IMG/VR virus record: IMGVR_UViG_2744054895_000001
Coordinates: 30,790 to 94,789 of that record
Reading direction: 5' to 3' (one strand)
Source of the DNA: a virus
Taxonomy: Duplodnaviria > Caudoviricetes
DNA: 64,000 nt
Shown piece by piece: positions 50,186 through 64,000 of this stretch. The position numbers were made by a program, and so were the translations under genes. The number at the start of each line of letters is the position of its first letter. The first letter of the stretch is position 1. The notes beneath the pieces were generated by a model that was given only the letters and a program-made list of their open reading frames with translations, did not search any database and was not told the DNA's origin.

Positions 50186-50188
50186 GGA

Positions 50189-51190: not shown

Positions 51191-51757
51191 ATCAACGCCT
51201 TCCGTCGGTCGGGGAAGGCCCTCGGCGCTTGGTGCCCGCCAAGCAAGAAGGCCCGGAGAGTTCACCCGGTCGCGTTGCCCAACGCCTCCGGGGACTCTCC
51301 GAGCCTACTAGAAGAACAACTTGTTCCACAAGTTGTTAGTCAAGAGTTGTGCAGCTCAGACGACCCAAACCTCCGTCTCACTGACTATCCGCAACCGACT
51401 AGCGTCGCCGTCGGCAGCCTTCAGAGCCGCAGCTAACACCTCGGGCCAGACCTTCACCTCGGTCCGTACCCTGCCGTTGTGGGAGTTTCGCCGGCGAGTC
51501 GCCGCCCCCCGCCGCACGGCACGATCCCGCCGCATAGCAGCGTCCTCACAATCCAACCTCTGCCACGCGTTCGCACCGTGACGCACAACCCTGTCGAACG
51601 CGGAGGCGCGCTCCTTGAAGTCCTGACCCATCCGCTGCGCTCCCTGCATCTCGCTGCAAAGCAAGAGGGGCTGACCTCGGACTCCCGAGAACTCAGCCCC
51701 TCTTGCGTTAGATCAACTCTGATCCGGCAAGCCGCGCCCGCGGCTGCGGTAATAACG

Positions 51758-52402
51758 TCACGGCTGAACCGCCAAGTCATCCTGGGCCGACCGATCGCCC
51801 TCCGACCGCCGAAGCCGGGCATACAAATCCACCAGAGGCTGCGCAGGCATACCCCTTTCCGGCATACCCGCGATCAAACGCATGTCCTGGGGAGTCAAGC
51901 GATCGTCCTTGTTGTCGAACGCGAGGTTGAGGTACTCGCGGATCTGAGCGGGCGTGACCTGCTCCCAGTCACCGCCTTCCAGCTCCTCCTCACGGCGGCG
52001 AACCGCCTTAAAGAGGTCCTCGACCGCGAAGCTCAGCTTGCCCCGATCCTGGAGCGCTTCGACCAGCTCTCGCTCCCCCTTGTCACGGAAGAGTTCGTCA
52101 CGCTCGCGCAGCTTGGCGCGAAGGTAGGCGCGAATCTCCGCAGTGGTGAAGAGGTTGCCGGCGTGGTCCTCGAACAGTTTCTCCAGCGCGACCTTTGCGG
52201 CCTGCGCACGGGAGAACCATGGGGCGTTGTGCTCGTGCCACTCTTCCTTGTGCTCACCACACAGGATCAGGTCGAGCGCCTTGGCCCCGTTGATCTCGAC
52301 ATGAAGCGGACGTCCCGGAACCGGCTTGCCGCAGATGACCTCGCGGCCAGCACCGTCATGGCCTACTAGCCGGTTGCACCGCACTGGCTGTTCAGTAGCC
52401 AT
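51758..52402 (-). CDS. Lsr2-like nucleoid-associated protein with two DNA-binding repeats
   Basis: LDLILCGEHKEEWHEHNAPWF (dimerisation-like); TTAEIRAYL..QDRGKLSFAVEDLF and TPAQIREYL..PERGMPAQPLVDLY. Confidence 0.55.
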   Translation of the reverse strand: MATEQPVRCNRLVGHDGAGREVICGKPVPGRPLHVEINGAKALDLILCGEHKEEWHEHNAPWFSRAQAAKVALEKLFEDHAGNLFTTAEIRAYLRAKLRERDELFRDKGERELVEALQDRGKLSFAVEDLFKAVRRREEELEGGDWEQVTPAQIREYLNLAFDNKDDRLTPQDMRLIAGMPERGMPAQPLVDLYARLRRSEGDRSAQDDLAVQP

Positions 52403-53298
52403 GAGCGCTCCTTCCATGCCGCCAACCTCTTACGGCGGCGCAAGCTCTACAAGATGATCCGCCCCACGGCGGACCCAACTCAATATGTGCAGCAATGGCC
52501 GCAACTATAGGGCAAGAGTTGGTCAACTTGTTTGCCTACTTGTACCTCACGCCCGGCAGGTGGGTCACAAACCACTCAGATGTTCGAATACTTGAAGGGC
52601 CGCAGCAGCACCGTCTCCCCCGTCCTCAAGTTCACCGACCATCGCAGGACACCTTGCTCGATGGCCCGCTCGATAGCCTCATCAGCCTCCAGCCCGTACA
52701 GATCCGCCAGCGCTCCTTCATGGGGAACGTCCTCGTCGGTACGCACGAACGGCGCCCGCCGACTGAAGTCGGCTGCTCTCAAGACCGGGACCTCTCCCAT
52801 ATCCCCCACCTCGGCCACCAACGACATGGCCCACACTCCCCGAGTTTCGGACCCTCAAGATCCCCATGAACGATGCTGCCCACGCCCCTCAGGCGGCCTC
52901 CTGAACGACGGGTTCCAGATGTACCACCCACACGACTTGTTCACCATCTTGTGCCTCTTGTTGTTGCTCAATCGCAAAACCGAACGAAGCTCAACACGCC
53001 GCCGAAGGCACAGCAGTGCAACCGCCGGTAACACCCGCCCTACGTGGGCAGACGCCACCCACAGCGCAAATACGGCCAGCAGATCGAGGCGAGAGCGACG
53101 CATGGGTGGCCGAGAAGTTGCTGTGTTGAGGCTCACATAATCGGAAGATCGTTAACCGTCGTCAACCATCGATCCACCCATCCGGCCAACTGGCATGACT
53201 CACCTGACCTGCTACTTCACAGATCCTCCACAGACGTCGATCCTGTCCGTCAGCCGCCTCAGCAACTTCAGCGACCTCGCGGCCAGGCCGTCACCACG

Positions 53299-53751
53299 TC
53301 ACGACGCTTCGCTGACAGCTTCCGCGAGCGGCACCCAGTCGTGCCGACCCAATCCCAGGTCCCGCCGACGTCGCCTCAGCAGCTCCGCAGCAACCCGCAC
53401 AGCGTGCTTCCGCTCGGCCTCAGCGATCTTTGACCATCCGCTCGCCACGTACCCGAGCCACACACCCACCGACCAGCCCACCGCCGGCGATCCGAACAGC
53501 GCCAGGTACTCAAGGACAGCCTCGTACCGCGGGGCGAATGCCTCGATCACACAGCTCGGCCGATCGACGTCGTCGACCACGACTGGAGTACCGCTCCCCC
53601 GCGTCTTGGACTGCACGTATCTATCGCGGCCCTGCTCCTGGGTTGCACCGCTCGATGTCTTCAGCAGCTTCGACGCGGCCAGTTCGACCAGCACACGGTC
53701 CTGCTCTCTCTGCATCTCATCGCTCATGCGGCGGAACGTACGTCGAGACAT
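53299..53751 (-). CDS. hypothetical protein
   Basis: GAGG RBS, ORF. Confidence 0.45.
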   Translation of the reverse strand: MSRRTFRRMSDEMQREQDRVLVELAASKLLKTSSGATQEQGRDRYVQSKTRGSGTPVVVDDVDRPSCVIEAFAPRYEAVLEYLALFGSPAVGWSVGVWLGYVASGWSKIAEAERKHAVRVAAELLRRRRRDLGLGRHDWVPLAEAVSEAS

Positions 53752-54231
53752 GCCGACCTCGCCTTATCCCGACTTACTCGCCCCGATCAACCGTGACCGA
53801 ACTGTCACCACCACGCTCGCTCGGCGCCCGGGACCGAATCCGACCTACGCGAGTTCCTCTTCGATGGGGTAGACCTCCGGGATCGGATGCCCCACGGGCT
53901 TTCGCAACCTATGCCTGTCGGCGTTGCACTGCGCAAGAAACTCAGAGGTCTCGCTATAGCGAGAGCGACCGCCACACTCACAACGCCAGCGATAGGCCGT
54001 CCTGGTACGGGAACCCTCGGCCGCGCTGCCTGATCGCGCCGCAGCCGCCTGGAGTGCACGCCCAACGATCAATGCCCCGCCCACGGCCACCGCGGTCACA
54101 CCACGGCCGGCCCATCTTCGGATCTTCATGGGCGGCACGGTAGCGCCGACCGATGGCCGATGCGCCCGTTTGGCTCAGTTCGTCGGTTTTACGAGTGGCT
54201 CGCTGGCCCCCGCCACGTCACATTCGAAGCC

Positions 54232-54837
54232 ATGAGCGAACGCGCCAAGCCCATGGTCCATCTATGGGAAATCATCCTCCGGGACAAGGCTTCCGACGAC
54301 AAGGACGACGTGAGCTTCGCCAAGTTCATGGAGTTTTGGGTCGGGTGGGGTCCGCCCATTGGCCTCGCGATCGGCGGCAGCCAGATGGCAAAGCACGGCG
54401 TGCCCGTCGCGTTGGCAGTCGTCGTCCCCCTCGCCGTATGGCTCGTCTGTTTCTGGTACGGCTACCTCAAGGCGAAGGTGCTGGCCCAGGAGATCGCACG
54501 AACTAAGACGTTCCTCCCCAACACCATTAAGACCAAGACCGAACTGCTCAGGTCCGCACTCACTGACGCAGCCGCCTTGTCAGAAGAGCTTCAGGCGGAG
54601 CTAAGGGCAGGGACGACAGCACTCCAGCGCATCCAACAGGAGGCCGCTGACTACAAGAGGCTGCGAGACCTCGACAGAGACGTGGCCGACACGGTCACTC
54701 GCTCCCTCGGCAGAGACGCCGCTCAGCGGGCTGCCAAGAGCGAGCGCAAGGCTCTCGTATGGAACGCCGTCTGGTTCTTGGCCGGCAGCGGCGTCACCTT
54801 GCTCGCCACTGTGTTCAGCCACTCGCTCACGCTGTGA
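54232..54837 (+). CDS. Membrane protein with coiled coil (moron-like)
   Basis: Two N-terminal TMs, central coiled coil, C-terminal TM. Confidence 0.6.
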   Translation: MSERAKPMVHLWEIILRDKASDDKDDVSFAKFMEFWVGWGPPIGLAIGGSQMAKHGVPVALAVVVPLAVWLVCFWYGYLKAKVLAQEIARTKTFLPNTIKTKTELLRSALTDAAALSEELQAELRAGTTALQRIQQEAADYKRLRDLDRDVADTVTRSLGRDAAQRAAKSERKALVWNAVWFLAGSGVTLLATVFSHSLTL

Positions 54838-55649
54838 CCAACGGCACAATGACGCTCCGTGTTGCCCAGCCCGGTTGCGTCGCCGACCGGTGCGCTGGAA
54901 AGCTGCTAAGCGTGACCGGCTCGGCGACTTTCGTGGCTCTCCGTCTACGAAATCGCGAAACCCACCCCAGTCACGCACGGCTACTGTCCTAATTGCTCGA
55001 CCCGGTGGCCATACAAGTGATCAGGGGGGAGTCGTCGGCTTTACCCGTTTAAGGGTGGGGGTGTCCGTTTCATTCCTTCTGTTTCAGCCAATAGTCATGC
55101 ACGACCTTGCATACATTCCCATGCGCGTGCGTATGCCCGTTTCGCACCCTATGTCGACTAGGACAGTCTCTCCACCGTTTGGGTAACTCCCAAATTCCCA
55201 TTTGGGTGCGCCCCCAACTGCGGAAACCTCGCCTGGTCACCTAAAAGGTTGTCAGTAGTGCGAAAGTCAACCCTCGCGCGACACCTTTTCCTGCATAAAG
55301 TCGACAGTTACAGTTCGTAAACAGATACTGTCAACCCAGGGTTGCGGAGTCGTGGGGCCACCCCCTGACAAACGGACCATCAGATACGCAGAGAGTTACT
55401 CAACGTGCATATATGCAGGTCACAGGCATAGATTCGGCCACGCGGATGCACTGTACCAATAGACCGTCAGTTACTTAGGCTTACCTCTGTCAGCAGTTAC
55501 AGAGCGTCAGAATGGCGGAAAGTAGCGAAAGTGGCTTGCTGGCTACCGAGCGTGCGCACGGCGCAGCATGGCACAACGCATCCACCTACTCACTGTGTGT
55601 ATGGGGGAAGCATGCCGACCACTTCCCGCACTCCCCGAAAAAATCCCTA

Positions 55650-55925
55650 GGCGCCGCTGTGAGCCGCTGTGAGGCAGGCGAGGCAGCGTGAGCCGTGACG
55701 AGGCAGCGTGAGCCGCTACAGGCGCCGCTGTGAGCCGTAGGCATACCGAGCAACCGTGAGCCGCTGGGAGCGCTACAGGCACCGCTAGGCAGCGTGCCGA
55801 CCGAACGTGAGCCGCTAGGCGCCGCTGTGAGCCGCTGTCAGGTGTCGAGCGGCGCCGCTGTAGCCATGGCGCACATGAGCGGCTGTGAGCCGCTGTGAGG
55901 CAGCGTGCCGAGCAGCTGCTAGCCG
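55650..55925 (+). repeat. Degenerate direct-repeat array, 8 x GTGAGCCG
   Basis: Copies at 55659, 55688, 55708, 55730, 55756, 55807, 55827, 55885; longer GGCGCCGCTGTGAGCCG three times. Confidence 0.8.
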
Positions 55926-56162
55926 TACCTACTGCCTACGTGGTGCATGCGTAGGGAGTGTGCCGACCACCCATCACCCCCTGAATCTCCAGGGCCGTCG
56001 AGCCATGAATCGGACATAAAGCCTCATATAGGGGCGATCGAGTGGCCGGCAATTCGTGGTCACGGAAAGTAGTTCCCTGTCACGATTGGTCACGCGCCGC
56101 AGGTCACGACAGGTGCGAGATGTCGAGATTCAAGAGATTGCGAGATGGCTCGCGATTCTGGG

Positions 56163-56192
56163 TTGTGCGAGGTACCTCGCACCACCTAATGT
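56163..56192 (+). promoter_or_regulatory. Putative housekeeping-sigma promoter TTGTGC-N18-TAATGT overlapped by a perfect 18-bp palindrome
   Basis: GTGCGAGGTACCTCGCAC at 56165-56182; about 100 nt upstream of boxA. Confidence 0.55.
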
Positions 56193-56252
56193 TCTCTGTG
56201 TCGGAACGAGGAACCACCGGAAACGGGGGAACCGAGTGAAGGCGGATGAATC

Positions 56253-56315
56253 GCACGGACGAAAGCCCTACGGGGTCAGTAGAAAGGCAGCGATCGTTCC
56301 TTGAGAACTCAACAG
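56253..56315 (+). promoter_or_regulatory. rRNA-operon leader / boxA antitermination mimic
   Basis: GGACGAAAGCCCTACGGGGTCAGTAGAAAGGCAGCGATCGTTCCTTGAGAACTCAACAG resembles the Streptomyces rrn leader as recalled (GGAGGAAAGCCCGAGAGGGTGAGTACAAAGGAAGCGTCCGTTCCTTGAGAACTCAACAG). Confidence 0.8.
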
Positions 56316-56319
56316 TGGA

Positions 56320-56985
56320 TATAGACGCACGGGAACGGTAACGACGTTTCTGCGCGGGGGTCGAGGGACCCCCACTATCGGCCGACGTGTCGATAGGGCG
56401 TGCATGCAACAGGGGTGAGGTATGCCTACTGTTGCCGAAGGATTAGAGTCCGGGACCAAATGCGCGTGGCTAGACGTCCGTGGCTTTCACAGCATGGAGA
56501 CAGATAGTCAGTGGATACGTGGTGGCAAGAGCTAACACAGAGGTACCGCCACCGTTACCCGTAGCGTCACTCTCTCTCATATCGCGCCGGATTTATCTGT
56601 GCGCGATACGGGGAGCGTTGCTCTTACAGGGCGCTCCCCTACCCTCTCTGTTTGGTCCGTTTACCGACGGACAACGCAGTACCGAGAGAGTCTGTCTAGG
56701 TTTCCGGTTGGAATCCAAGCTAAACCCACCATGCGTTCAGTGTGCTAGCACTGCATGGCCGTCGTCTGATGACGTAAGTGAGGGGTGTCGTGGGGTCTAG
56801 CAGCCCCAAGTAGGTCAGTTACATCGAGGCCGAATCCCGGGTGCTTTCACAGGTCCTAAGCGAATTCCGATTCCTAGACGCTCTCTCAATCTCATGCACT
56901 ACGGTGCGGCAGGGGCATGCCGGCTTGTCATGCGCGCATTTCCCTGCCGTAGCCGAGAGCCAACGGAGTGGTGTCCGTTGGTCAC
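56320..56985 (+). ncRNA. Candidate large structured leader/ncRNA
   Basis: No credible ORF; many hairpins; long-range stems 56324-56338/56552-56568 and 56684-56700/56873-56887. Confidence 0.55.
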
Positions 56986-57003
56986 CCATGAGAGGAGAGA
57001 ACA

Positions 57004-57489
57004 ATGTCTCATCGCCAGGCGATTACCCGTGAGGATTACCTGTCGGCGCTGAGTGCCGCCCAGTTCGGCGATGTCGCTCCGTTTCTGGCGCGATGCTGCC
57101 CGGACTGCGGTGCGGGTGATGAGTCCGCATCGGATGGGAAGCACGCTGTCATGGGCGGCAGTGTCGTGATCGGATGCGACGGATCCATGCTCGTGAACCC
57201 CAATCTTCTGGGATTCAACGTGGAACTGTGGCTCGACTGGCGTCATATGGAATCCGACAACGTGCCCGAGGACGCCTCTGTGTGGGCATATGAGGGCGTG
57301 ATCTGGCGGACCGGCGCGAAGGTGCGTCCGGCCCGGCCGACGGAGTACGAGGACGGTCTGACCGGAACTCTCGTGCGTATTGCCCTGGAGCACAGCTTCG
57401 GCGATACCGAAGCAACGCTCTGGGTCCAGTGGCACAACAACACGAGCGGTCCGGACTATCACGGATACGGTGACATCGTTCTGATCTGA
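57004..57489 (+). CDS. hypothetical Cys/His protein (paralog of 60233-60931)
   Basis: GAGAGGAGAG RBS; CPDC..HAVMGGSVVIGCDG..VNPN..WLDWR. Confidence 0.75.
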   Translation: MSHRQAITREDYLSALSAAQFGDVAPFLARCCPDCGAGDESASDGKHAVMGGSVVIGCDGSMLVNPNLLGFNVELWLDWRHMESDNVPEDASVWAYEGVIWRTGAKVRPARPTEYEDGLTGTLVRIALEHSFGDTEATLWVQWHNNTSGPDYHGYGDIVLI

Positions 57490-57490
57490 A

Positions 57491-57558
57491 AGTCGTCCCG
57501 GCGACTCTAAATAGGCGTTAGGCCGGGAGCGTCCGTACGGAATTCCGTACGGGGTCGC
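57491..57558 (+). ncRNA. Pistol self-cleaving ribozyme 1
   Basis: P1 AGUCG/CGACU, loop UCCCGG pairs with CCGGGA, UAAAUAG, P2 GCG/CGC, UUAGG, GCGU, P3 CCGUACGG hairpin, G|U site 57554/57555. Confidence 0.9.
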
Positions 57559-57611
57559 AGCAGCGCTGCGGGTCAGGGGTGGTGCCCTGTCTGTGTCGAG
57601 AGGAGAGAGCA

Positions 57612-58139
57612 ATGAGCATCAGTCCGATCAACTGGTCCGAGCGCATCATGCGTCCCCGGTCCGGTGCGTGGAAGCAGTGCCCTAACTGCAAGCGGCGGAA
57701 CGTCTCCATTCGCTCCCCGCATTCCCACACCGACGGCCGACCGTGCAAGTTCGTGGTGATCTACCGCACGTACTTCACGATGGACATGATCCATGACGGC
57801 GACTACGGCCAGATCAGGAACGAGGACGGCTCTTTCGGTGACGGTCCCCTCCAGACTTACGAGATTGTGGACTGCGCGCCGAAGGACGTCTCCGGTCCAT
57901 GGGACAACCCCGTCAAGCTCGCAATCGACGCCATTCGTGACGCCGATTGCGCGTACGACGAGGGTGCCGACTGGTTTTACCACCACGACGGCTCGTACAT
58001 CCGAGACCACTACTCGGGTGAGCGCATCGACCCGTCCGCGCACCTCTGGGGGTTCACGGACGAGGAAGACGAGCGCGTCCACCACGTGATCCAGCGCGGG
58101 TGGAAGCAATTCTGGGCGAGCCTGCGTAAGGCCGCCTAA
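57612..58139 (+). CDS. hypothetical protein (CxxC..H..C)
   Basis: GAGAGGAGAGAG RBS, ATG 57612. Confidence 0.75.
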   Translation: MSISPINWSERIMRPRSGAWKQCPNCKRRNVSIRSPHSHTDGRPCKFVVIYRTYFTMDMIHDGDYGQIRNEDGSFGDGPLQTYEIVDCAPKDVSGPWDNPVKLAIDAIRDADCAYDEGADWFYHHDGSYIRDHYSGERIDPSAHLWGFTDEEDERVHHVIQRGWKQFWASLRKAA

Positions 58140-58140
58140 C

Positions 58141-58208
58141 AGTCGACTCGGCGACTCTAAATAGGCGTTAGGCCGAGTGCGTCCGTACGGAATTCCGTGC
58201 GGGGTCGC
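58141..58208 (+). ncRNA. Pistol self-cleaving ribozyme 2
   Basis: Same fold with compensatory pseudoknot ACUCGG/CCGAGU; G|U site 58204/58205. Confidence 0.9.
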
Positions 58209-58241
58209 AGGGGTGGTTCCCTGCCACGAGAGGAGAGAGCT

Positions 58242-58952
58242 ATGTCTGCGCAGACCCTCGAAATGGTTGCGTCCGACTTTCTGTACGGCTCCACCGAGGA
58301 GGCCCTGAACGAACTGTTCGCGGCCCCGCCGGCCATGGAGCCGCACACTGACGCGCGCTTCGACAAGGGCAACGACACGATCGTCATCGACGGGGTGCAG
58401 TTCTACGCCAAGCGCGTGGACTACCACCGTGAGATGGACGAGAAGTTCGTCCAGTGGGTGATGGAAAACCGCCAGGGGTTTCCGGTCTACGGCGACCCGT
58501 CCTCTGCGGACGGCGAGTCGTTGGAACTCTGGGCACAGTCCATCACGGACAAGTACTTCGGGTCCCCCTACATCTCCGGCATCGACACGGACGGCTACGA
58601 GTCGTTCATGCCGAACGGGGTCAAGGGCCAGTTCTTCCGGTACGAGGACGAGACGTACGTCGCCCTGTGGCAGCAGTGCACCGGATACCGCGCACGCACG
58701 CGTCCGATGGTGTTCCACGTGTCCTGCCACGAGTCCGCCTACCTGCTGGACGACGACAAGGCCACGGCGTACTGCACCGAGTGCGAGGACGTCGTGTTCG
58801 ACATCGAGTCCGGCGGGCAGCACATCAAGCGCATCGACCGGAACGGCGAAGAGATCGACGACGCCCCGGAGGTGTCATTCGACGACCTGGTCGGCCATCC
58901 CGTCTGCCCCAAGTGCGGTTCCGATCTGCGTGTCGAGGCCGCGAATTTCTGA
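58242..58952 (+). CDS. hypothetical acidic protein with C-terminal zinc ribbon
   Basis: RBS; CTEC...CPKCG. Confidence 0.75.
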   Translation: MSAQTLEMVASDFLYGSTEEALNELFAAPPAMEPHTDARFDKGNDTIVIDGVQFYAKRVDYHREMDEKFVQWVMENRQGFPVYGDPSSADGESLELWAQSITDKYFGSPYISGIDTDGYESFMPNGVKGQFFRYEDETYVALWQQCTGYRARTRPMVFHVSCHESAYLLDDDKATAYCTECEDVVFDIESGGQHIKRIDRNGEEIDDAPEVSFDDLVGHPVCPKCGSDLRVEAANF

Positions 58953-58961
58953 ATTCATTCA

Positions 58962-59021
58962 TGCCGAAACTCCGTGAGGAGTCGTCCCAAGGTGGTGCTT
59001 GGGACCTGATGATGGCAGCCA
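58962..59021 (+). ncRNA. Type II hammerhead ribozyme 1
   Basis: UGCC-GAAA-CUCC(GUGA)GGAG-UC|GUCCCAAG(GUGGUG)CUUGGGAC-CUGAUGA-U-GGCA; cut after 58983. Confidence 0.92.
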
Positions 59022-59053
59022 ATGTCTGAGTCAGTGTTGAGAGGAGAGAGCTT

Positions 59054-59617
59054 ATGTCTGACCTGCGCATCTACGTGGCGAGTCTGTCCGACTACAACAA
59101 CAGCATTCTCCACGGTCGATGGATCGACGCTGACCAGGATGTCCAGGCCATCAACGATGAGATCGCTGAGATGCTGAAGGAGTCGCCTGCGGCCCAGAAG
59201 TATGGCGATGTCGCGGAGGAGTATGCCATCCACGACTACGACGGATTCGGGGATTTCAATCTCGGCGAGTATGAATCGCTGGAGAAGATTACGTCCATTG
59301 CCAAGGCACTGGATGAGTTTCCCTCTTGTGTAGTCGCTTGGTTCTTCCGCGAGTGCTCCCACATGGAGTTCGACGAGATTGTGGACACCATCCGCGAGAA
59401 GTCGATCACCACGATCGAGGATCAGTGGGGCAATGAAACGGACGCGCTGGCTGAGTATCTCTTCGACCAGATCGAAGAGAGTGGTGACCTGCCGGAGCAG
59501 TACAAGAATCACCAGATGGCCATAGCCAAGAGCATGGCGCACGATGCCGTCTGCGGCGGGGAATACAACATCCTCTACGAGGGCGGCGGCAAGTACCACA
59601 TCTTCGAGGTCCTGTGA
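59054..59617 (+). CDS. ardA: Antirestriction protein ArdA (DNA mimic)
   Basis: RIYVASLSDYNNSILHGRWIDA..EEYAIHDYDGF..LGEYESL; very acidic. Confidence 0.88.
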   Translation: MSDLRIYVASLSDYNNSILHGRWIDADQDVQAINDEIAEMLKESPAAQKYGDVAEEYAIHDYDGFGDFNLGEYESLEKITSIAKALDEFPSCVVAWFFRECSHMEFDEIVDTIREKSITTIEDQWGNETDALAEYLFDQIEESGDLPEQYKNHQMAIAKSMAHDAVCGGEYNILYEGGGKYHIFEVL

Positions 59618-59622
59618 CCAAT

Positions 59623-59682
59623 TGCCGAAACCCCTTCGGGGGTCGTCTCAGGGTGGTGCCTGGGGCCTGACGATGGCAGCCA
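59623..59682 (+). ncRNA. Type II hammerhead ribozyme 2
   Basis: UGCC-GAAA-CCCC(UUCG)GGGG-UC|GUCUCAGG(GUGGUG)CCUGGGGC-CUGACGA-U-GGCA; cut after 59644. Confidence 0.92.
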
Positions 59683-59705
59683 TTGTCGGTTTCGAGAGGA
59701 GAGTT

Positions 59706-60140
59706 GTGACGAGACACGCTATCCGGGCGATGCGAGGAATAATGCGTCGCAGGGATCAGGACTACGCGTGGATTCCATCGCTGGGCCATGGAGTTCTCTA
59801 TGACCCCGATAACCCTACCTGCCCGCACTCTGTCACAAGAGCGGCAGTTCGTGCGCTCCCGAGCGGAACACGCACGATGTCTTGCAGGATAAGTAACAGG
59901 TCTCGCGCGTTGGAGCTCGTAGTCCGAGAATTGGCTACGGAATGGTACTGCGACATCGCAGACATACGATCTATCGTGGCCGACAGGTTCCGGGGATTCG
60001 GGGACAGCGAACAATCCGCACTCGACGATGCAATCACGAGTGGCCTTACTTCCCCGACTTCTCTGGAGAACGTCAAGCACGGGTGCATGACGGAATTCCG
60101 CAAGACGCCGTTCGGTGTGGTCATGCTCGATCAGGGTTAA
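59706..60140 (+). CDS. hypothetical protein
   Basis: GTG after GAGAGGAGAG; lower GC than neighbours. Confidence 0.65.
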   Translation: MTRHAIRAMRGIMRRRDQDYAWIPSLGHGVLYDPDNPTCPHSVTRAAVRALPSGTRTMSCRISNRSRALELVVRELATEWYCDIADIRSIVADRFRGFGDSEQSALDDAITSGLTSPTSLENVKHGCMTEFRKTPFGVVMLDQG

Positions 60141-60146
60141 TCAAAA

Positions 60147-60206
60147 GCCGAAACCCCTTCGGGGGTCGTCGTGGGGTGGTGCCCACGGCCTGATGACGGC
60201 AGCCGC
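60147..60206 (+). ncRNA. Type II hammerhead ribozyme 3
   Basis: GCC-GAAA-CCCC(UUCG)GGGG-UC|GUCGUGGG(GUGGUG)CCCACGGC-CUGAUGA-C-GGC; cut after 60167. Confidence 0.92.
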
Positions 60207-60232
60207 TGAAGTCAGTTCTGAGAGGAGAGAGC

Positions 60233-60931
60233 ATGAAGCCCGAGGAATTGGAGTACCTGGACGCCGTGCGTCAGACACCCCTCGGACGCATCGAGCCTTA
60301 CCTGTCTTCGGTCTGTCGTGACTGCGACGGACAGGTGGACTCGTCGAATTTGGCTGGGCACGTGATGATCGGCTCACATGTCGTTATCTGCTGTGAGGGT
60401 TACTTCATGGTGGACCCGAACGTGGTCGGCATCCCGTCGCCGAATTGGTCGGACTGGCGCGAGAAGGCAGAGTCCAATCCCAAGTCGCTGTATAAGCAGG
60501 GTGAGTTCCTGGCTGCGCACGCCCTAGAACTGGGCGTCTCGTACGACAGCGATCTTCCTGCGTCCGCCTTCCACCCGAAGCTCGTCGGCGCGGCCATTGC
60601 CGCTCTGCGTGCATGGCTGGAGGTCAACTGGGGCAGCGCAGCAGTCCGCGAGGCCGAAAAGGAGGCCCTCGGTCACACCGGAGACGGGATGTATGTCGGC
60701 ACGGTCGACAAGCTCAACTACCAGGGGAAGACCCTGTGGGTTGGTGATCGTGTGCGCTGCGCGAACCAGGATGCGCAGGGGAACGACCTGTCTTTCTCCG
60801 GGGTGCTAGCCAAGATCGAGCTGGAGTACTGGGGGTCCGAACTGAAGCCGACGGTCAATGTGCGCGCTCCCGAAGCGACGCACGACGATCCGATCGGATG
60901 GGAGGACCTGAGCCGCGTAACGTCGTCGTAG
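60233..60931 (+). CDS. hypothetical Cys/His protein (paralog of 57004-57489)
   Basis: CRDC..HVMIGSHVVICCEG..VDPN..WSDWR. Confidence 0.75.
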   Translation: MKPEELEYLDAVRQTPLGRIEPYLSSVCRDCDGQVDSSNLAGHVMIGSHVVICCEGYFMVDPNVVGIPSPNWSDWREKAESNPKSLYKQGEFLAAHALELGVSYDSDLPASAFHPKLVGAAIAALRAWLEVNWGSAAVREAEKEALGHTGDGMYVGTVDKLNYQGKTLWVGDRVRCANQDAQGNDLSFSGVLAKIELEYWGSELKPTVNVRAPEATHDDPIGWEDLSRVTSS

Positions 60932-60948
60932 TTTGGATTCGCCTACAA

Positions 60949-61010
60949 GCCGAAACCTCCGAGAGGAGGTCGTCGTGGGGTGGTGCCCACGGCCTGATGA
61001 AGGCAGCCGC
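60949..61010 (+). ncRNA. Type II hammerhead ribozyme 4
   Basis: GCC-GAAA-CCUCC(GAGA)GGAGG-UC|stem I-CUGAUGA-A-GGC; cut after 60971. Confidence 0.92.
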
Positions 61011-61037
61011 TGAAGTCAGTTCTGAGAGGAGAGAGTT

Positions 61038-61538
61038 ATGGGTCTGAGCAAGCAGGATGTCCGCGCGATCAGGAACGCTGATGGACTGGTGTTCTTCCAC
61101 AACGCCCCGATTTCTCGGGGCGGTGAGCGCATGAACTGGCTCAAGTGCATCCGCGACGGTTCGAAGACTTCGAGTGGTTTCGAGGACTTCCACGTCGTCC
61201 GGCTGGAGAGCACGTCCATCACGTACTACGGGGAGGACGCGCACACCAAGCACTCGGCGTCCCTCGGTGACGAAAAGGTCGTCGGGTCCGTCTACATCAG
61301 CTCCCCCGGCATGCTGCCGCAGCATGAGACCTGGATGCGAGCGCTCCGCGAGGGTGATGAACTCCGGGTCCAGATGTGGCTGGGCAACAACAACGGCTAC
61401 CTCAAGGAGTCGGGGATGGCGCATGACTACGCGTGGTTGGACATCCGGCGCCCGAAGACGGACGCCAGGACAAGGTACTGGCTGGGCAATGTGATCTGCC
61501 CGGCGACCAGCACGTGCCGCATGCTGAGGGCGCTCTGA
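61038..61538 (+). CDS. hypothetical protein
   Basis: Strong RBS, 166 aa. Confidence 0.75.
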   Translation: MGLSKQDVRAIRNADGLVFFHNAPISRGGERMNWLKCIRDGSKTSSGFEDFHVVRLESTSITYYGEDAHTKHSASLGDEKVVGSVYISSPGMLPQHETWMRALREGDELRVQMWLGNNNGYLKESGMAHDYAWLDIRRPKTDARTRYWLGNVICPATSTCRMLRAL

Positions 61539-61602
61539 ACCAGCGGTAGAAGGCTCGCCGGCTGAGGTGTGTTCTCTGTCGGCGGCCCTGCCGTGCCTAA
61601 TT

Positions 61603-61662
61603 TGCCGAAACTCCGTGAGGAGTCGTCGTGGGGTGGTGCCCACGGCCTGACGAAGGCAGCCA
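61603..61662 (+). ncRNA. Type II hammerhead ribozyme 5
   Basis: UGCC-GAAA-CUCC(GUGA)GGAG-UC|stem I-CUGACGA-A-GGCA; cut after 61624. Confidence 0.92.
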
Positions 61663-61694
61663 ATCGCTGAGTCAGTATTGAGAGGAGAGAGCAC

Positions 61695-62519
61695 ATGAGC
61701 ATCAGAAAAGTGCTGGTCTCGGCTGATGACGTTCACGCGTACGAAGCCATGGTCGACACGGAGGCTCCGCTGTGGAACGGGTTTCTTTCGCCCCGCTTCA
61801 CTCTGGAGGCCGTGAAGCAGATAGCTTCTGACATGCAGGAGGATCTGAAGAGGTCCGGCTACGCCGATCAGGAGGAGATCCGCGTCATCGAGGCCCCCGG
61901 TTTGTTCGGGGAAAGCGAGGACAGGGTCGACGAGTTCGGCGAGCCGATCCAGATCCCTGCGGTGGTGGTGCTCCATATCAGTTGGACGTACGTCTTCGAT
62001 GACGACCCGGAGTCCTGCGCGAAGGTGGTTGCGCCCGGCAAAGACGGGTTGTACGCCGTTGGCGCATGGGAGTGGACGTGGAGCGAGATCAGTCCGAACA
62101 TCTCCCAGCGCGCGGAGTATCTATTCGACTTCGCGACCGCGGCCATCAATGAGGCTGTCTGGTACGAAGTCGAGCCGACTGAGGACGACGAGGACCAGAC
62201 GCTCGGCATGGAGTGGGAAGCCGTCGAGGCCCTGAACCTGGGGATCAACAGCGTGCATCTCAACATGCGCTCCGCCTTCATGTCCGCGCTCGGGGAGTTC
62301 ATCGACGCCAATGCGCAGGTGCTGAACGGCATCCCTGCCGACCAGGCCGGCTATGCCTTCTGGCACTCCATGCGCGGGGTGGACGGCATCAAGTCCCGTT
62401 CGTTCCTCGGAAGGCGTGAGATCCCCGCAGAGGTTCGCCAGCGTCTCCACGAGACGGCGCGTACGCACTCGTACAGCAGCGTTCGATTCGTCGGAGACAT
62501 GCTCCACATCGAGAGCTAG
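61695..62519 (+). CDS. hypothetical acidic protein
   Basis: Strong RBS; WNGFLSPRFT..GLYAVGAWEWTW. Confidence 0.75.
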   Translation: MSIRKVLVSADDVHAYEAMVDTEAPLWNGFLSPRFTLEAVKQIASDMQEDLKRSGYADQEEIRVIEAPGLFGESEDRVDEFGEPIQIPAVVVLHISWTYVFDDDPESCAKVVAPGKDGLYAVGAWEWTWSEISPNISQRAEYLFDFATAAINEAVWYEVEPTEDDEDQTLGMEWEAVEALNLGINSVHLNMRSAFMSALGEFIDANAQVLNGIPADQAGYAFWHSMRGVDGIKSRSFLGRREIPAEVRQRLHETARTHSYSSVRFVGDMLHIES

Positions 62520-62527
62520 CTCAACAA

Positions 62528-62589
62528 TGCCGAAACCTCCGAGAGGAGGTCGTCGTGGGGTGGTGCCCACGGCCTGATGAAGGCAGCCA
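62528..62589 (+). ncRNA. Type II hammerhead ribozyme 6
   Basis: UGCC-GAAA-CCUCC(GAGA)GGAGG-UC|stem I-CUGAUGA-A-GGCA; cut after 62551. Confidence 0.92.
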
Positions 62590-62620
62590 ATCGCTGAGTC
62601 AGTGTTGAGAGGAGAGAGCT

Positions 62621-63217
62621 ATGCGGACTGCTTCAACTATGATCGGTTTCGCGATCGTCGAGGACGACGACTTCGACCTGGAGAACTTCAGCGACTCCGA
62701 AGCGCTCATCAAGGAGTGCGGCGAGAAGCTGGAGTCTGGGGAGTGGACCGTCTGCGGCATCGTGGCCGTGGTCCACGGCGAACTTCGATACGAGGCCGCC
62801 CTGTGGGGCACCGTCATCGAGGGCTGGCACTTCGGCAGGTACAAGACCGTGGAGGACATCCGCGACCCGTACCTCCGAGAGGTCGCCGAGGACATCGCCG
62901 ATCAGGCGCAGGATCTCATCCCGGTGACGCACGCCGACGACTCACCTGACGCGCTGGTCGGTCACGTGGTGGCCGTCCGGCCGTACTACTACGAGCCATC
63001 CGGTCCCGGATCCTTCCGCTCCAAGCGTTCCCCATTCATCGCCCGTGCGGAGGTGAAGGAGACGTTCGGGGAGGAGATGGTCGTCCTGCGGTTCCTGGAG
63101 GACGCCGGTCCGTGGCCGCGCGACGGTGCCTACTACCCGCGCGAGTTGCACAAGGTGCAGGCGTGCAAGTGCCCCGCATGTACCTCCGGTGGCATCGGCA
63201 TACACCAGGGAGCTTGA
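62621..63217 (+). CDS. hypothetical protein
   Basis: Strong RBS, acidic N-half, C-terminal CxCxxC. Confidence 0.72.
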   Translation: MRTASTMIGFAIVEDDDFDLENFSDSEALIKECGEKLESGEWTVCGIVAVVHGELRYEAALWGTVIEGWHFGRYKTVEDIRDPYLREVAEDIADQAQDLIPVTHADDSPDALVGHVVAVRPYYYEPSGPGSFRSKRSPFIARAEVKETFGEEMVVLRFLEDAGPWPRDGAYYPRELHKVQACKCPACTSGGIGIHQGA

Positions 63218-63280
63218 TCCAGACGCAGAGGACTCGTCGGCTTGCCATGCACGTCGGCCGACGGATCCGCCATGCCTTAT

Positions 63281-63343
63281 TGCCGAAACCTCCTGCAAGG
63301 AGGTCGTCACGGGGTGGTGCCCGTGGCCTGACGAAGGCAGCCC
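63281..63343 (+). ncRNA. Type II hammerhead ribozyme 7
   Basis: UGCC-GAAA-CCUCC(UGCAA)GGAGG-UC|GUCACGGG(GUGGUG)CCCGUGGC-CUGACGA-A-GGCA; covarying stem I; cut after 63305. Confidence 0.92.
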
Positions 63344-63370
63344 TTGGTCAGTTCTGAGAGGAGAGAGCAC

Positions 63371-64000
63371 ATGATCAGCACCGGCAAGCCCGAGGTCAAC
63401 CCGGCTACCTTCGTGCTCGCGGAGGATGACGGGGTGGTCACGGTACAGGTGTCCGTCACCTACCCGATGGATGGTGAGGCCATCGTCGCCAAGCTCTACG
63501 CGGCGTACAGCAAGCCGTTCGAGAACGGCACGCCCCTCCCCGAGCAGTTGACCATGCAGGACGTCATGCGCACGCTCGCGCAGGAGTCCGCCAACTGCGC
63601 GGACGGCTGGCACTTCTGGGAGTCCGAGCCAGGCCAGGCGGCGTGGGACGCGGTTCATCCGTGGGCGGAGGCTCAGGTCCGTCGTCTCTTTCCCATGCTG
63701 ACGTGGCCAGAGGAGCAGTGGTCCGAGTATGCCGAGGTCGGCCGGATGGTCGAGCATCTCCGGCAGATGGGGATCCCCGCCGAGGAGATCAGCACAGGTG
63801 GCGGCTGCTGGGCCGCGCGTGTGGCGCTTTGCCAGGGGCACGATCTGAACCTGACCATCGCGTCCGGTGAGGACTGGTGTTGGCAGATCTACCGCGAGGG
63901 CGAGCAGAGCATGGCCGGCTACTGGCCGGGGTCTGACATTCCGCGTGCCGCCCGGCGCACCAAGAAGCTCATCAAGGGGCTCGGCAACGTGGTTGCCTGA
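63371..64000 (+). CDS. hypothetical protein
   Basis: ATG 63371 after GAGAGGAGAGAG; stop at window end. Confidence 0.72.
   Translation: MISTGKPEVNPATFVLAEDDGVVTVQVSVTYPMDGEAIVAKLYAAYSKPFENGTPLPEQLTMQDVMRTLAQESANCADGWHFWESEPGQAAWDAVHPWAEAQVRRLFPMLTWPEEQWSEYAEVGRMVEHLRQMGIPAEEISTGGGCWAARVALCQGHDLNLTIASGEDWCWQIYREGEQSMAGYWPGSDIPRAARRTKKLIKGLGNVVA

What the first reader, a model, noticed from the sequence alone, without database searches (positions are those of the whole stretch)
57491..58208. Two pistol ribozymes occupy the same junction slot as the hammerheads
Both match the pistol consensus element by element: P1, a 6-nt loop pseudoknot, UAAAUAG, P2, UUAGG, GCGU, P3 and the GU cleavage site. 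The pseudoknot shows double compensatory changes (UCCCGG/CCGGGA versus ACUCGG/CCGAGU). Two structurally unrelated ribozyme classes used interchangeably in one operon indicate that the cleavage event itself is selected, not a particular repeat sequence. The pistol examples I recall are mostly Firmicutes or metagenomic, so a high-GC actinophage context is notable.
Basis: partly seen in the sequence, partly recalled or inferred. Interest (0 to 1): 0.85.

Follow-up and report, generated by a model that had tools for sequence, protein, structure and literature searches.

The report
Pistol ribozymes in Streptomyces phage operon
Two genuine pistol self-cleaving RNAs sit with seven hammerheads between consecutive genes of a Streptomyces phage operon, a known kind of arrangement in an unusual host group, and related phages carry either ribozyme type in front of the same gene.

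Summary
Rfam scores Pistol (RF02679) at 57491-57559 (68.4 bits) and 58141-58209 (67.3 bits), against a cut-off of 34.5. Seven type II hammerheads follow, so nine consecutive junctions of one + strand operon each hold a ribozyme.

Every junction reads stop codon, ribozyme, GUGGU(G/U) hairpin, GAGAGGAGAG Shine-Dalgarno, start codon.

A related prophage in Streptomyces sp. NPDC045431 carries 3 pistols and 17 hammerheads, with one gene between each pair. The g2 orthologue (85-88% aa) has a pistol upstream in two phages and a hammerhead in a third. g1 (82% aa) shows the same kind of swap. This supports selection for cleavage rather than for one repeat sequence.

The general phenomenon is already in print. 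Tandem hammerheads flank single prophage genes, including ardA, and pistol was found near other ribozymes and phage genes.

Pistol is rare in Actinomycetota: 0 of 300 other sampled genomes. It also occurs in cultured Curtobacterium phages.

Cleavage itself is untested. Verdict: new members of a known kind, and a good experimental model.

The parts
57491..57559 (+). Pistol ribozyme 1. P1 is 57491-57506 and P3 is 57532-57553. The GU linker is 57554-57555, with predicted cleavage between G57554 and U57555. The P2 3' strand is 57556-57559.
   Evidence: Rfam RF02679, 68.4 bits, cut-off 34.5, full-length match. Orthologous to pistol A of G001, with the same pseudoknot.
58141..58209 (+). Pistol ribozyme 2. 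Predicted cleavage is between G58204 and U58205.
   Evidence: Rfam RF02679, 67.3 bits. The ribozyme body matches G001 pistol B. The 3' tail matches the junction of G001 pistol C.
57496..57528 (+). Pseudoknot of pistol 1: UCCCGG (57496-57501) pairs with CCGGGA (57523-57528).
   Evidence: Read. In the 10-sequence alignment all 6 pseudoknot pairs are 100% paired and 2 of the 6 covary.
58146..58178 (+). Pseudoknot of pistol 2: ACUCGG (58146-58151) pairs with CCGAGU (58173-58178). It differs from copy 1 by two changes on both sides.
57555..57589 (+). 5' end of the predicted 3' cleavage product of pistol 1. A hairpin at 57555-57571 re-uses the P2 3' strand. A second hairpin at 57574-57589 has a GUGGUG loop.
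   Evidence: Minimum-free-energy fold of 57555-57614. Both hairpins are kept in the G001 pistol A junction.
58207..58224 (+). Hairpin GCAGGG-GUGGUU-CCCUGC, which starts 2 nt after the cut of pistol 2 and overlaps the P2 3' strand.
   Evidence: Folds. G001 pistol C has GCAGGA/UCCUGC at the same place, a change on both sides.
57598..57614 (+). Shine-Dalgarno GAGAGGAGAG and the ATG of g1 (start 57612).
   Evidence: The same decamer precedes all nine downstream genes and g0.
58228..58244 (+). Shine-Dalgarno GAGAGGAGAG and the ATG of g2 (start 58242).
   Evidence: Homology with the G043 orthologue begins here.
57004..57489 (+). g0, 161 aa, first gene of the operon. Its stop codon lies 1 nt before pistol 1.
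   Evidence: No Pfam or PHROG family.
57612..58139 (+). g1, 175 aa, flanked by the two pistols.
   Evidence: No family. 82% aa orthologue in G001, where a hammerhead lies upstream.
58242..58952 (+). g2, 236 aa, with pistol 2 upstream and a hammerhead downstream.
   Evidence: Orthologues of 85% aa (G001) and 88% aa (G043). No family. The protein atlas gave no lead.
58962..63346 (+). Seven type II hammerheads (58962-59024, 59623-59685, 60146-60208, 60948-61012, 61603-61665, 62528-62592, 63281-63346). They separate g2 through g9, including the ArdA gene g3 (59054-59617).
   Evidence: Rfam RF02276, 47.3-56.2 bits. ArdA is PF07275, E 7.1e-25, and phrog_2059 anti-restriction, E 4e-22.
56960..56981 (+). 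Stand-alone hairpin with a GUGGUG loop in front of the Shine-Dalgarno of g0. No ribozyme lies here.
   Evidence: Sequence. Fold: -15.9 kcal/mol, z -2.28. No Rfam match in the permissive scan.

Best explanation
The two elements are functional pistol-class self-cleaving ribozymes. They are the first two of at least nine ribozyme 'punctuation marks' in one long + strand transcript of a Streptomyces myophage or prophage. The transcript starts behind a leader that resembles the host rrn leader. It runs through about ten small genes: ArdA anti-restriction plus orphans.

As each junction is transcribed, its ribozyme folds and cuts. A pistol cuts at G|U, 5 nt before its 3' end. A hammerhead cuts after GUC, at the foot of stem I. 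The upstream cistron is released with a 2',3'-cyclic phosphate and a structured 3' end.

The downstream cistron starts with a 5'-OH followed by a hairpin with a GUGGU(G/U) loop, then an unpaired GAGAGGAGAG Shine-Dalgarno and the start codon. In the pistol junctions the hairpin re-uses the 3' strand of P2. The product should therefore refold after the cut, which would disfavour re-ligation and cap the new 5' end.

The result is a set of monocistronic mRNAs with standardised 5' UTRs whatever gene lies upstream. This is the principle of the synthetic RiboJ insulator. Because the junction is a self-contained module, genes and ribozyme classes can be exchanged by recombination at the junctions without changing expression.

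Shown here: class membership, covariation, junction anatomy, and ribozyme-class swaps at orthologous genes.

Inferred: cleavage in vivo, the single transcript, refolding after the cut, and the effect on stability and translation.
For: 1. Class membership. The pistols score 68.4 and 67.3 bits against a cut-off of 34.5, full length. The 14 control genomes gave 0 matches.

2. Structure under selection. The test used 10 related pistols: 2 from the window, 3 from G001 and 5 from viral or metagenome contigs. 94.8% of 229 cells form standard pairs, against 35-46% when partners are slid by 1-3 columns. 10 of 23 pairs carry changes on both sides. 0 of 500 shuffles reached the covariation score. The two pseudoknot variants are each kept at the orthologous junction of G001: pistol 1 matches A and pistol 2 matches B.

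3. Same slot. All 29 junctions of G000 (9) and G001 (20) read cut site, hairpin with GUGGU(G/U) loop, Shine-Dalgarno, then 2-10 nt to the start codon. One hammerhead cut, G001 732539, was mis-placed by my script and corrected by eye.

4. One gene per ribozyme. This holds for 9 junctions in G000 and 20 in G001, all on the + strand. Terminator-like sites in 54500-64000 number 3, no more than the 5.2 expected from shuffles.

5. Class swaps. g2 has a pistol upstream in G000 and G001 and a hammerhead in G043. g1 has a pistol in G000 and a hammerhead in G001.

6. Hairpin overlapping P2. In 5 of 5 pistol junctions the fold of the 3' product pairs the GCA of P2 into a 5'-terminal hairpin. The Shine-Dalgarno is left unpaired in 4 of 5.

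7. Precedent in print.
- Tandem hammerheads flank single prophage genes, including ardA, and cleave in vitro and in E. coli (PMC3088659, passages).
- The rate constant for a pistol construct is predicted to be above 10 per minute under simulated physiological conditions (PMC4604425, passage).
- RiboJ is a ribozyme plus hairpin placed before the RBS. It equalises 5' ends and raised expression 2- to 10-fold (PMC6206723, passages).

8. Leader. The 15-mer at 56301-56315 occurs exactly 4 times in the G001 host genome. One copy lies about 170 nt upstream of a 16S gene.
Against: There is no experimental or transcript evidence. No sequencing run holding this DNA could be listed, so cleavage, the transcript's extent and its 5' ends are all untested.

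P2 is short: 3 standard pairs plus a G.A that is non-standard in 10 of 10 copies. The nested fold prefers the downstream hairpin to P2. Cleavage therefore depends on co-transcriptional timing and could be inefficient or conditional.

Fold energies of the 3' products are not unusual: z-scores run from -0.5 to -2.6.

The promoter is not identified. The consensus scan found none near the leader.

Only 1 of 10 window genes has a known function. 0 of the 17 G001 array genes scanned have a Pfam family. 'Early/anti-defence operon' therefore rests on ArdA alone.

The four closest cultured relatives by terminase (56% aa) have neither ribozyme class: 0 of 4. The array is not essential to this phage type.
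Confidence: 0.8

Rival explanations
1. Conditional cleavage. The hairpin just downstream competes with P2 for the CGCA strand, so the pistol works as a folding switch. The fraction of transcripts cut, and hence the ratio of coupled to uncoupled g0/g1/g2 expression, would depend on transcription speed, ribosome traffic, Mg2+ or a factor that binds the GUGGUG loop.
For: The minimum-free-energy folds of both uncut junctions pair GCA with the downstream strand instead of forming P2. The overlap is kept in 5 of 5 pistol junctions, with one change on both sides in G001 pistol C. Perreault 2011 raises regulated cleavage for phage hammerheads (PMC3088659, passage).
Against: P2 is complete before the 3' strand of the competing hairpin is transcribed. 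Pistol cleavage is fast: a rate above 10 per minute is predicted (PMC4604425). The hammerhead junctions in the same slot have no such competitor, because stem I is part of the ribozyme. No ligand-binding element was found.
Confidence: 0.12
2. The junctions matter mainly as DNA. The repeated ribozyme-hairpin-SD sequences would be homology patches that let gene cassettes be gained, lost and swapped. RNA cleavage would be incidental or decayed.
For: Homology between G000, G001 and G043 breaks at the junctions, on either side of the ribozyme. G001 carries an extra [78-aa gene + hammerhead] between pistol A and g1. It also carries an extra 119-aa gene between pistols B and C. Window pistol 2 looks like a B/C recombinant. 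Only 3 window genes (g1, g2, g5) have full-length relatives in G001's array, at 82%, 85% and 53% aa.
Against: A homology patch needs sequence identity, not structure. Yet the pistols keep pairing through changes on both sides in P1, the pseudoknot, P2 and P3. Nearly all strongly conserved consensus positions are kept. Two unrelated ribozyme folds fill the same slot, which a need for DNA homology would not predict. This reading complements the best explanation more than it competes with it.
Confidence: 0.05
3. The ribozymes act in RNA ligation or circularisation. Successive cleavage and re-ligation would yield circular or spliced single-gene RNAs, rather than simply cutting the transcript.
For: Perreault 2011 names this possibility for tandem hammerheads (PMC3088659, passage). 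A paper on pistol ligation activity exists, but I saw only its title, in a reference list.
Against: Perreault 2011 reports that no such products were detected. The refolding hairpin at the pistol 3' product should withdraw the P2 strand and so disfavour ligation. The ends flanking a gene come from different ribozyme classes (g2: pistol upstream, hammerhead downstream), so they cannot rebuild one active site.
Confidence: 0.02
4. Chance resemblance or inactive relics: the matches are not ribozymes.
For: None beyond the lack of an assay.
Against: The scores are about twice the family cut-off, with E about 1e-10. The 14 control genomes gave 0 matches. Five copies in two genomes covary.
Confidence: 0.01

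Closest known systems
Pistol self-cleaving ribozyme class (Rfam RF02679; Weinberg et al. 2015; Harris et al. 2015, PMC4604425)
   Same: P1, P2 and P3 are present. So are the 6-bp pseudoknot between the P1 loop and the P2-P3 junction, the conserved UAAAUAG / UUAGG / GCGU stretches, and the 2-nt GU linker carrying the scissile bond. The elements lie next to phage genes and other ribozymes, as the class is described.
   Different: The host group differs. The class is described as prevalent in Firmicutes and environmental DNA. These copies sit in a 65% GC Streptomyces myophage or prophage. They start 1 nt after a stop codon. They are followed by a hairpin that overlaps P2. Among 93 pattern-matched sites in viral contigs, only one lies in a locus above 60% GC.
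Clustered hammerhead ribozymes flanking single genes in prophages (Perreault et al. 2011, PMC3088659)
   Same: Several ribozymes on one strand flank individual genes whose identity varies. ardA is among them. The proposed role is processing of a long phage transcript into single-gene mRNAs. The window's seven type II hammerheads are a plain example.
   Different: The arrays are much longer and strictly periodic: 9 or more junctions here, 20 in G001 and 17 in G043. Two ribozyme classes share one array. Every junction has the same hairpin and Shine-Dalgarno. The leader resembles an rrn leader. I did not see that paper's figures or supplements, so the longest array it reports is unknown to me.
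RiboJ synthetic ribozyme insulator (described in Clifton et al. 2018, PMC6206723; original Lou et al. 2012 recalled, not read)
   Same: The order is ribozyme, then hairpin, then ribosome binding site. After cleavage only a hairpin-bearing leader remains, so every insulated gene has the same 5' end. The natural junctions have this order in 29 of 29 cases.
   Different: RiboJ is an engineered part built from a plant satellite-RNA hammerhead and is used singly behind a promoter. Here the arrangement is natural, iterated between cistrons, and built from either pistol or type II hammerhead. This is a likeness in working principle, not family membership.
Pistol matches in cultured Curtobacterium phages Pippin15 and JoyLin (unannotated in the records)
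   Same: The host phylum is Actinomycetota. The match begins at the last base of the upstream CDS, and the surrounding genes are small accessory genes.
   Different: Each phage has a single copy with no hammerheads in the 12-kb stretches scanned. The scores are lower, 51 and 50 bits. Several P2 and P3 pairs are mismatched and GCGG replaces GCGU. These copies may be weaker or divergent.

Membership tests
Pistol ribozyme (RF02679) | Overall fit to the family covariance model above the curated cut-off | tested here: met
   68.4 and 67.3 bits against 34.5, model positions 1-68 of 68. Repeated on the whole record.
Pistol ribozyme (RF02679) | [quoted passage not shown] | tested here: met
   UCCCGG/CCGGGA and ACUCGG/CCGAGU. 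All 6 pairs are 100% paired in 10 sequences and 2 covary.
Pistol ribozyme (RF02679) | P2 and P3 stems supported by covariation | tested here: met
   In P3, 5 of 8 pairs carry changes on both sides and 98.7% of cells are paired. In P2, 2 of 4 pairs covary. The fourth P2 position is G.A in 10 of 10 copies and is scored positively by the Rfam model.
Pistol ribozyme (RF02679) | Two-nucleotide junction (usually GU) between P3 and P2 that carries the cleavage site, with length strictly conserved | tested here: met
   GU at 57554-57555 and 58204-58205. The criterion is stated in PMC4604425 section 5.
Pistol ribozyme (RF02679) | The highly conserved nucleotides of the consensus | tested here: met
   In the cmscan alignments every upper-case consensus position is matched, with two exceptions. 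Position 17 is C instead of A in both copies. Positions 6 and 38 differ in copy 2 but covary. I could not check the list of the '10 highly conserved nucleotides', because it is in a figure that is not held.
Pistol ribozyme (RF02679) | Site-specific self-cleavage giving 2',3'-cyclic phosphate and 5'-OH ends | not testable with these tools
Ribozyme-punctuated prophage operon (Perreault 2011) | Several self-cleaving ribozymes on one strand flanking single genes or short gene blocks in a phage or prophage | tested here: met
   Nine ribozymes occupy nine consecutive junctions, with one gene between each. The record is a myovirus with sheath, baseplate, portal and terminase. ArdA is among the genes.
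Ribozyme-punctuated prophage operon (Perreault 2011) | Processing of the polycistronic RNA at every ribozyme | not testable with these tools
   That paper shows it in vitro for other arrays. It is not tested for this one.
Hammerhead type II (RF02276), for the neighbouring elements | Fit to the family model above the cut-off, with the CUGANGA and GAAA cores and a GUC cleavage triplet | tested here: met
   7 matches, 47.3-56.2 bits against 37.

The most novel reading that the evidence does not exclude
The junctions are a natural counterpart of the RiboJ insulator, used as universal cassette linkers. Each gene of an rrn-leader-driven phage accessory or anti-defence operon sits between self-contained modules of ribozyme, GUGGUG hairpin and strong Shine-Dalgarno. 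These modules erase upstream context at the RNA level. At the DNA level they serve as recombination joints. Genes, and even the ribozyme class (pistol or hammerhead), can then be swapped freely while expression stays constant. This would make the array a phage analogue of an integron cassette array, held together by catalytic RNA. The conserved GUGGU(G/U) loop, which is needed for hammerhead tertiary folding but is also kept where there is no hammerhead, would have a second function on the processed mRNA.
Probability: 0.4. Interest if true: 0.7.

Novelty: new member of a known kind. Interest (0 to 1): 0.5.

Why it matters
What bacterial and phage self-cleaving ribozymes are for is still an open question. 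[quoted passage not shown]

These Streptomyces prophages offer a clean natural experiment, for four reasons.
- The arrays hold 9 to 20 ribozymes with exactly one gene between each.
- Two unrelated ribozyme folds occupy the same slot.
- Orthologous genes carry a pistol upstream in one phage and a hammerhead in another.
- One of the hosts is a named strain, Streptomyces sp. NPDC045431.

Cleavage mapping, dead-ribozyme mutants and class swaps could show directly whether cleavage sets mRNA stability, translation or modularity.

The work also extends pistol to Actinomycetota phages. It further shows that the design used in synthetic biology (ribozyme + hairpin + RBS) exists in nature.

Tried and rejected
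**Searches for relatives**
- Megablast of 56500-59500 against cultured phages found no match.
- The four closest cultured relatives by terminase are BRock, Alone3, pSt2308 and GiJojo. 0 of 4 have Pistol or Hammerhead_II, so they gave no comparison.
- An exact pistol pattern specific to the window found 0 matches in viral contigs.
- A looser pistol core pattern found 91 stretches with 93 sites. 79 of the 93 had a P1 of at least 3/4 pairs and a pseudoknot of at least 5/6 pairs. I gave Rfam the 14 highest-GC loci out of these 91. They held 15 pistols and 4 tRNAs and no hammerhead, so mixed arrays are not the rule there.
- A hammerhead pattern found 8 viral loci with 12 hammerheads and no pistol.
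- g2 as a protein query found no relative in viral contigs. tblastn of g0-g9 against all loci fetched up to that point gave nothing.
- The first metagenome pattern found 0 matches. A looser one found 10 loci, none with the GAGAGGAGAG junction.
- Burkholderia phage Bcep176 matched only 24 nt by BLAST and has no pistol at gathering score.

**Expression data**
- No RNA or DNA holder was listed by the look-up of sequencing runs.

**Function of the array genes**
- The protein atlas gave no usable lead for g2; the best score was 0.86, with no common family.
- Pfam found nothing for 9 of 10 window genes or for 17 of 17 G001 genes. PHROGs matched g3 (anti-restriction) and gave one weak hit for g6, phrog_27970, E 0.0058.

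**Promoter**
- The scan gave no credible site near the leader. By eye I saw TTGTGC-18-TAATGT at 56163-56192, but it fails the scan's criteria and I do not claim it.

**Literature**
- I found no paper on self-cleaving ribozymes in Streptomyces phages. The search 'self-cleaving ribozyme' + 'Streptomyces phage' gave 0 papers. The search 'self-cleaving ribozymes' + Streptomyces + hammerhead + pistol gave 2 unrelated reviews. The search ribozyme + ardA + prophage gave only Perreault 2011 and one unrelated paper.
- Weinberg 2015 (PMC4509812), Wilson 2019 (PMC6523996) and Lihanova 2021 (PMC8583172) are not held. What I say of Weinberg 2015 comes from Harris 2015 and the 2019 review.
- Supplements are closed. 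Perreault's Figure 3, Figures S1-S3 and Dataset S1, which list the array contexts, could bear on how long the known arrays are.

**Rejected readings**
- Chance match, inactive relic and circular RNA production are treated under the rivals.
Full report
**1. The observation**

The Rfam 15 scan of the whole 64-kb window returned ten matches above each family's curated cut-off. Two are Pistol (RF02679): 57491-57559 (68.4 bits, E 2.4e-10) and 58141-58209 (67.3 bits, E 4.2e-10). Both are on the + strand, both are full length, and the cut-off is 34.5 bits. Seven are type II hammerheads (RF02276, 47.3-56.2 bits, cut-off 37). They start at 58962, 59623, 60146, 60948, 61603, 62528 and 63281, all on the + strand. 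The tenth is a group I intron far away.

A permissive scan of 50000-64000 added only three sub-threshold matches to unrelated families. Searching the whole 94,789-base record gave the same 2 + 7 matches, and 14 control genomes gave none.

- P1 is AGUCG...CGACU.
- The six loop bases pair with the P2-P3 junction. Copy 1 reads UCCCGG/CCGGGA and copy 2 reads ACUCGG/CCGAGU, so two pairs are changed on both sides.
- UAAAUAG, P2, UUAGG and GCGU are present.
- P3 has eight pairs.
- The GU linker puts the scissile bond at G57554|U57555 and G58204|U58205.

**2. Setting**

The window is the right-hand 64 kb of an IMG/VR record classed as a provirus, 96% complete and 64.7% GC. It encodes a tail sheath, baseplate wedge, portal, large terminase and endolysin. 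The terminase is 56-57% identical to those of Streptomyces phages BRock, Alone3, LuckySocke, GiJojo and pSt2308.

Most genes lie on the - strand. The last ~10 kb is a + strand block. In it, every gene is preceded by GAGAGGAGAG and a start codon 2-5 nt later, and every intergenic space from g0/g1 to g8/g9 holds one ribozyme. The record ends inside g9.

Of the ten genes, only g3 has a family: ArdA anti-restriction (PF07275, E 7.1e-25; phrog_2059, E 4e-22).

Upstream of g0 there is no ribozyme. There is a stand-alone hairpin with a GUGGUG loop at 56960-56981. Further upstream lies a leader whose 15-mer at 56301-56315 recurs exactly four times in a Streptomyces host genome. One of those copies lies about 170 nt upstream of a 16S gene.

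**3. Relatives**

A pattern scan of one genome per species found a matching pistol in Streptomyces sp. NPDC045431 (L106). That genome (G001) carries 3 pistols and 17 type II hammerheads within C2:732111-744519, all on the + strand. Exactly one gene lies between each pair. The order is P-H-P-P followed by 16 hammerheads.

The flanking DNA is syntenic with the window at about 76-88% nucleotide identity. This is therefore a related prophage, and it suggests the window's array is cut short by the end of the record.

Sampling 151 Streptomyces genomes (G001 among them) gave hammerhead II in 8 of 151. G043 had at least 17 copies and G129 had 9 in that sample. Pistol appeared in G001 only, that is 1 of 151. 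A phylum-wide sample likewise gave 1 of 151, again G001. Only about 31 candidates per genome were scored, under stricter filters, so these are lower bounds.

Rfam on the two other arrays found 17 hammerheads in G043, 10 in G129 and no pistol. G043 shares the leader (82% nt) and shares g2 (88% aa), g8 (73%), g9 (70%, first half) and g5 (46%).

**4. The swap test**

The three related arrays allow a direct check.
- g2 is preceded by a pistol in G000 (58141-58209) and in G001 (733627-733692). In G043 it is preceded by a hammerhead (L132:6665-6727). In the three-way alignment, similarity begins exactly at GAGAGGAGAGAGCTATG.
- g1 is preceded by a pistol in G000. In G001 it is preceded by a hammerhead (732539-732603), because an extra 78-aa gene with its own hammerhead sits between pistol A and g1.
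- G001 also has an extra 119-aa gene between pistols B and C. Window pistol 2 has the body of B and the 3' tail of C.
- The genes upstream of pistol 1 and of pistol A (g0 and a 103-aa gene) are unrelated.

Breakpoints therefore fall on both sides of the ribozyme. The junction behaves as an independent module, and gene content is mosaic.

**5. Structure under selection**

I aligned ten pistols: 2 from the window, 3 from G001 and 5 from viral or metagenome contigs. I counted pairs for the Rfam structure plus the pseudoknot.
- 94.8% of 229 cells are standard pairs, against 35-46% when the 3' partners are slid by 1-3 columns.
- 10 of 23 pairs have changes on both sides.
- 0 of 500 shuffles reach the observed covariation score.

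One caveat applies. The five outside sequences were fetched with patterns that fixed parts of P1 and the pseudoknot. Invariance of those columns is partly by construction, and P3, P2 and the P1 closing pair carry most of the signal.

Within the Streptomyces pair alone there are four further changes.
- P1 changes A-U to G-C (pistol A).
- P3 has two changes on both sides (pistol A).
- P3 is wholly different in pistol C.
- Each pseudoknot variant is kept at its orthologous position.

**6. Junction anatomy and mechanism**

For all 29 junctions of G000 and G001, the order downstream of the predicted cut is a hairpin with a GUGGU(G/U) loop, then the Shine-Dalgarno, then 2-10 nt to the start codon. 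One hammerhead cut was corrected by eye.

In the hammerheads the hairpin is stem I and starts at the cut. In the pistols it is a separate hairpin that starts 2-19 nt after the cut.

In 5 of 5 pistol junctions, the first hairpin of the 3' product uses the GCA of the P2 3' strand. The Shine-Dalgarno is left unpaired in 4 of 5 folds. The fold energies are unremarkable, with z-scores from -0.5 to -2.6. The argument therefore rests on conservation, including one change on both sides: GCAGGG/CCCUGC becomes GCAGGA/UCCUGC.

I infer three things.
- The ribozyme cuts during transcription.
- The product then refolds, so the new 5'-OH end is buried in a hairpin and P2 cannot re-form.
- Each cistron becomes an mRNA with the same short leader, 37-58 nt after pistols and about 58-74 nt after hammerheads.

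This is the working principle of RiboJ, a ribozyme plus hairpin placed before the RBS. RiboJ makes 5' ends identical and raised expression 2- to 10-fold in E. coli (PMC6206723, passages read).

**7. What is already known**

Harris et al. 2015 (PMC4604425; sections and passages read) state three things. Pistols lie near phage genes. They are prevalent in Firmicutes and environmental DNA. They were found by searching next to hammerhead and twister ribozymes and phage genes.

Perreault et al. 2011 (PMC3088659; passages read) describe multiple hammerheads flanking individual genes of varying identity in prophages. They propose processing into single-gene mRNAs. They show cleavage of three tandem arrays in vitro. 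They note that the Agrobacterium triple array flanks ardA.

The 2019 review (PMC6765202; passages read) calls the function still unsettled.

Mixed arrays also turned up here in other phyla. A Firmicutes MAG has pistol plus twister-sister. A Bacteroidales MAG has twister-sister plus pistols. A Lachnospiraceae MAG has pistol plus hammerhead. The kind of thing is therefore known.

**8. What is new**

- **Host group.** No paper on ribozymes in Streptomyces phages was found. Among 93 pattern-matched pistol sites in viral contigs, only one lies in a locus above 60% GC. It is not unique to Streptomyces phages, however. Curtobacterium phages Pippin15 and JoyLin carry unannotated pistol matches of 51 and 50 bits that start at the last base of a CDS. 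Two more Curtobacterium phages match by BLAST.
- **Array form.** The arrays are long and have strict one-gene periodicity.
- **Comparative evidence.** Orthologous genes show ribozyme-class swaps.
- **Shared module.** Both ribozyme classes share the same hairpin-SD module.
- **Leader.** The leader resembles an rrn leader.

**9. Verdict**

The pistols are new members of a known class, sitting in a known kind of arrangement.

Confidence that they belong to the class by sequence and structure is about 0.97. Confidence that they cleave and process the operon's RNA as described is about 0.8.

Interest is moderate. A specialist would not be surprised by the association. The system is, though, an unusually clean and tractable model for the open question of what phage ribozymes do.

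Noticed in passing
L132:5081-5299 (G043:C21, leader just upstream of its hammerhead array): A fragment matching bacterial 16S rRNA model positions 101-347 (127 bits) sits between the shared leader and the first gene of the related G043 array. The window lacks this piece: window 56613-56636 corresponds to about 300 nt in G043. This suggests the arrays are driven by a captured rrn promoter-leader-16S 5' segment.
   Followed up: partly
window 56301-56315: The 15-mer TTGAGAACTCAACAG in the operon leader occurs exactly 4 times in the Streptomyces G001 genome. One copy lies about 170 nt upstream of a 16S gene and two lie at contig ends. The G001 prophage leader carries it with 1 mismatch. This fits an rrn-leader/boxA mimic, as another first-reader note proposed.
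   Followed up: partly
window 55640-55930: A dense run of short direct repeats built on GTGAGCCGCT / GCCGCTGTGAG / GGCAGCGTG lies in a non-coding stretch upstream of the leader (read). It could be iterons or a binding-site array. Not analysed.
   Followed up: no
window 22069-22321 (- strand): Group I intron match, RF00028, 68.5 bits against a cut-off of 50, inside the structural gene block.
   Followed up: no
L134:6001-6074 and L135:6001-6067 (Curtobacterium phages Pippin15 and JoyLin): Unannotated pistol matches (51 and 50 bits) start at the last base of a hypothetical-protein CDS, at the head of a 250-280 nt gap. They lie a few genes downstream of annotated cyclic-nucleotide-sequestering (anti-defence type) genes. 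P2 and P3 carry mismatches.
   Followed up: partly
L133 (G129:C34:54000-72000): A third Streptomyces array has 10 type II hammerheads but none of the GAGAGGAGAG decamers. It shares no genes with the window's array by tblastn. Hammerhead arrays thus exist in more than one lineage of Streptomyces prophage.
   Followed up: partly
L107, L109, L110 (MAG contigs): Mixed ribozyme clusters occur in other phyla. A Firmicutes MAG has a pistol followed about 140 nt later by a twister-sister. A Bacteroidales MAG has a twister-sister plus two pistols within 1.3 kb. A Lachnospiraceae MAG has a pistol plus an opposite-strand hammerhead II.
   Followed up: no
window 56960-63330 and G001/G043 arrays: The GUGGU(G/U) hexaloop is kept in hammerhead stem I (24 of 24 hammerheads in G000 and G001, and 17 of 17 in G043). 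It is also kept in the stand-alone hairpins after all 5 pistols and before the first gene of all three arrays. The loop may therefore have a role beyond hammerhead tertiary folding.
   Followed up: partly
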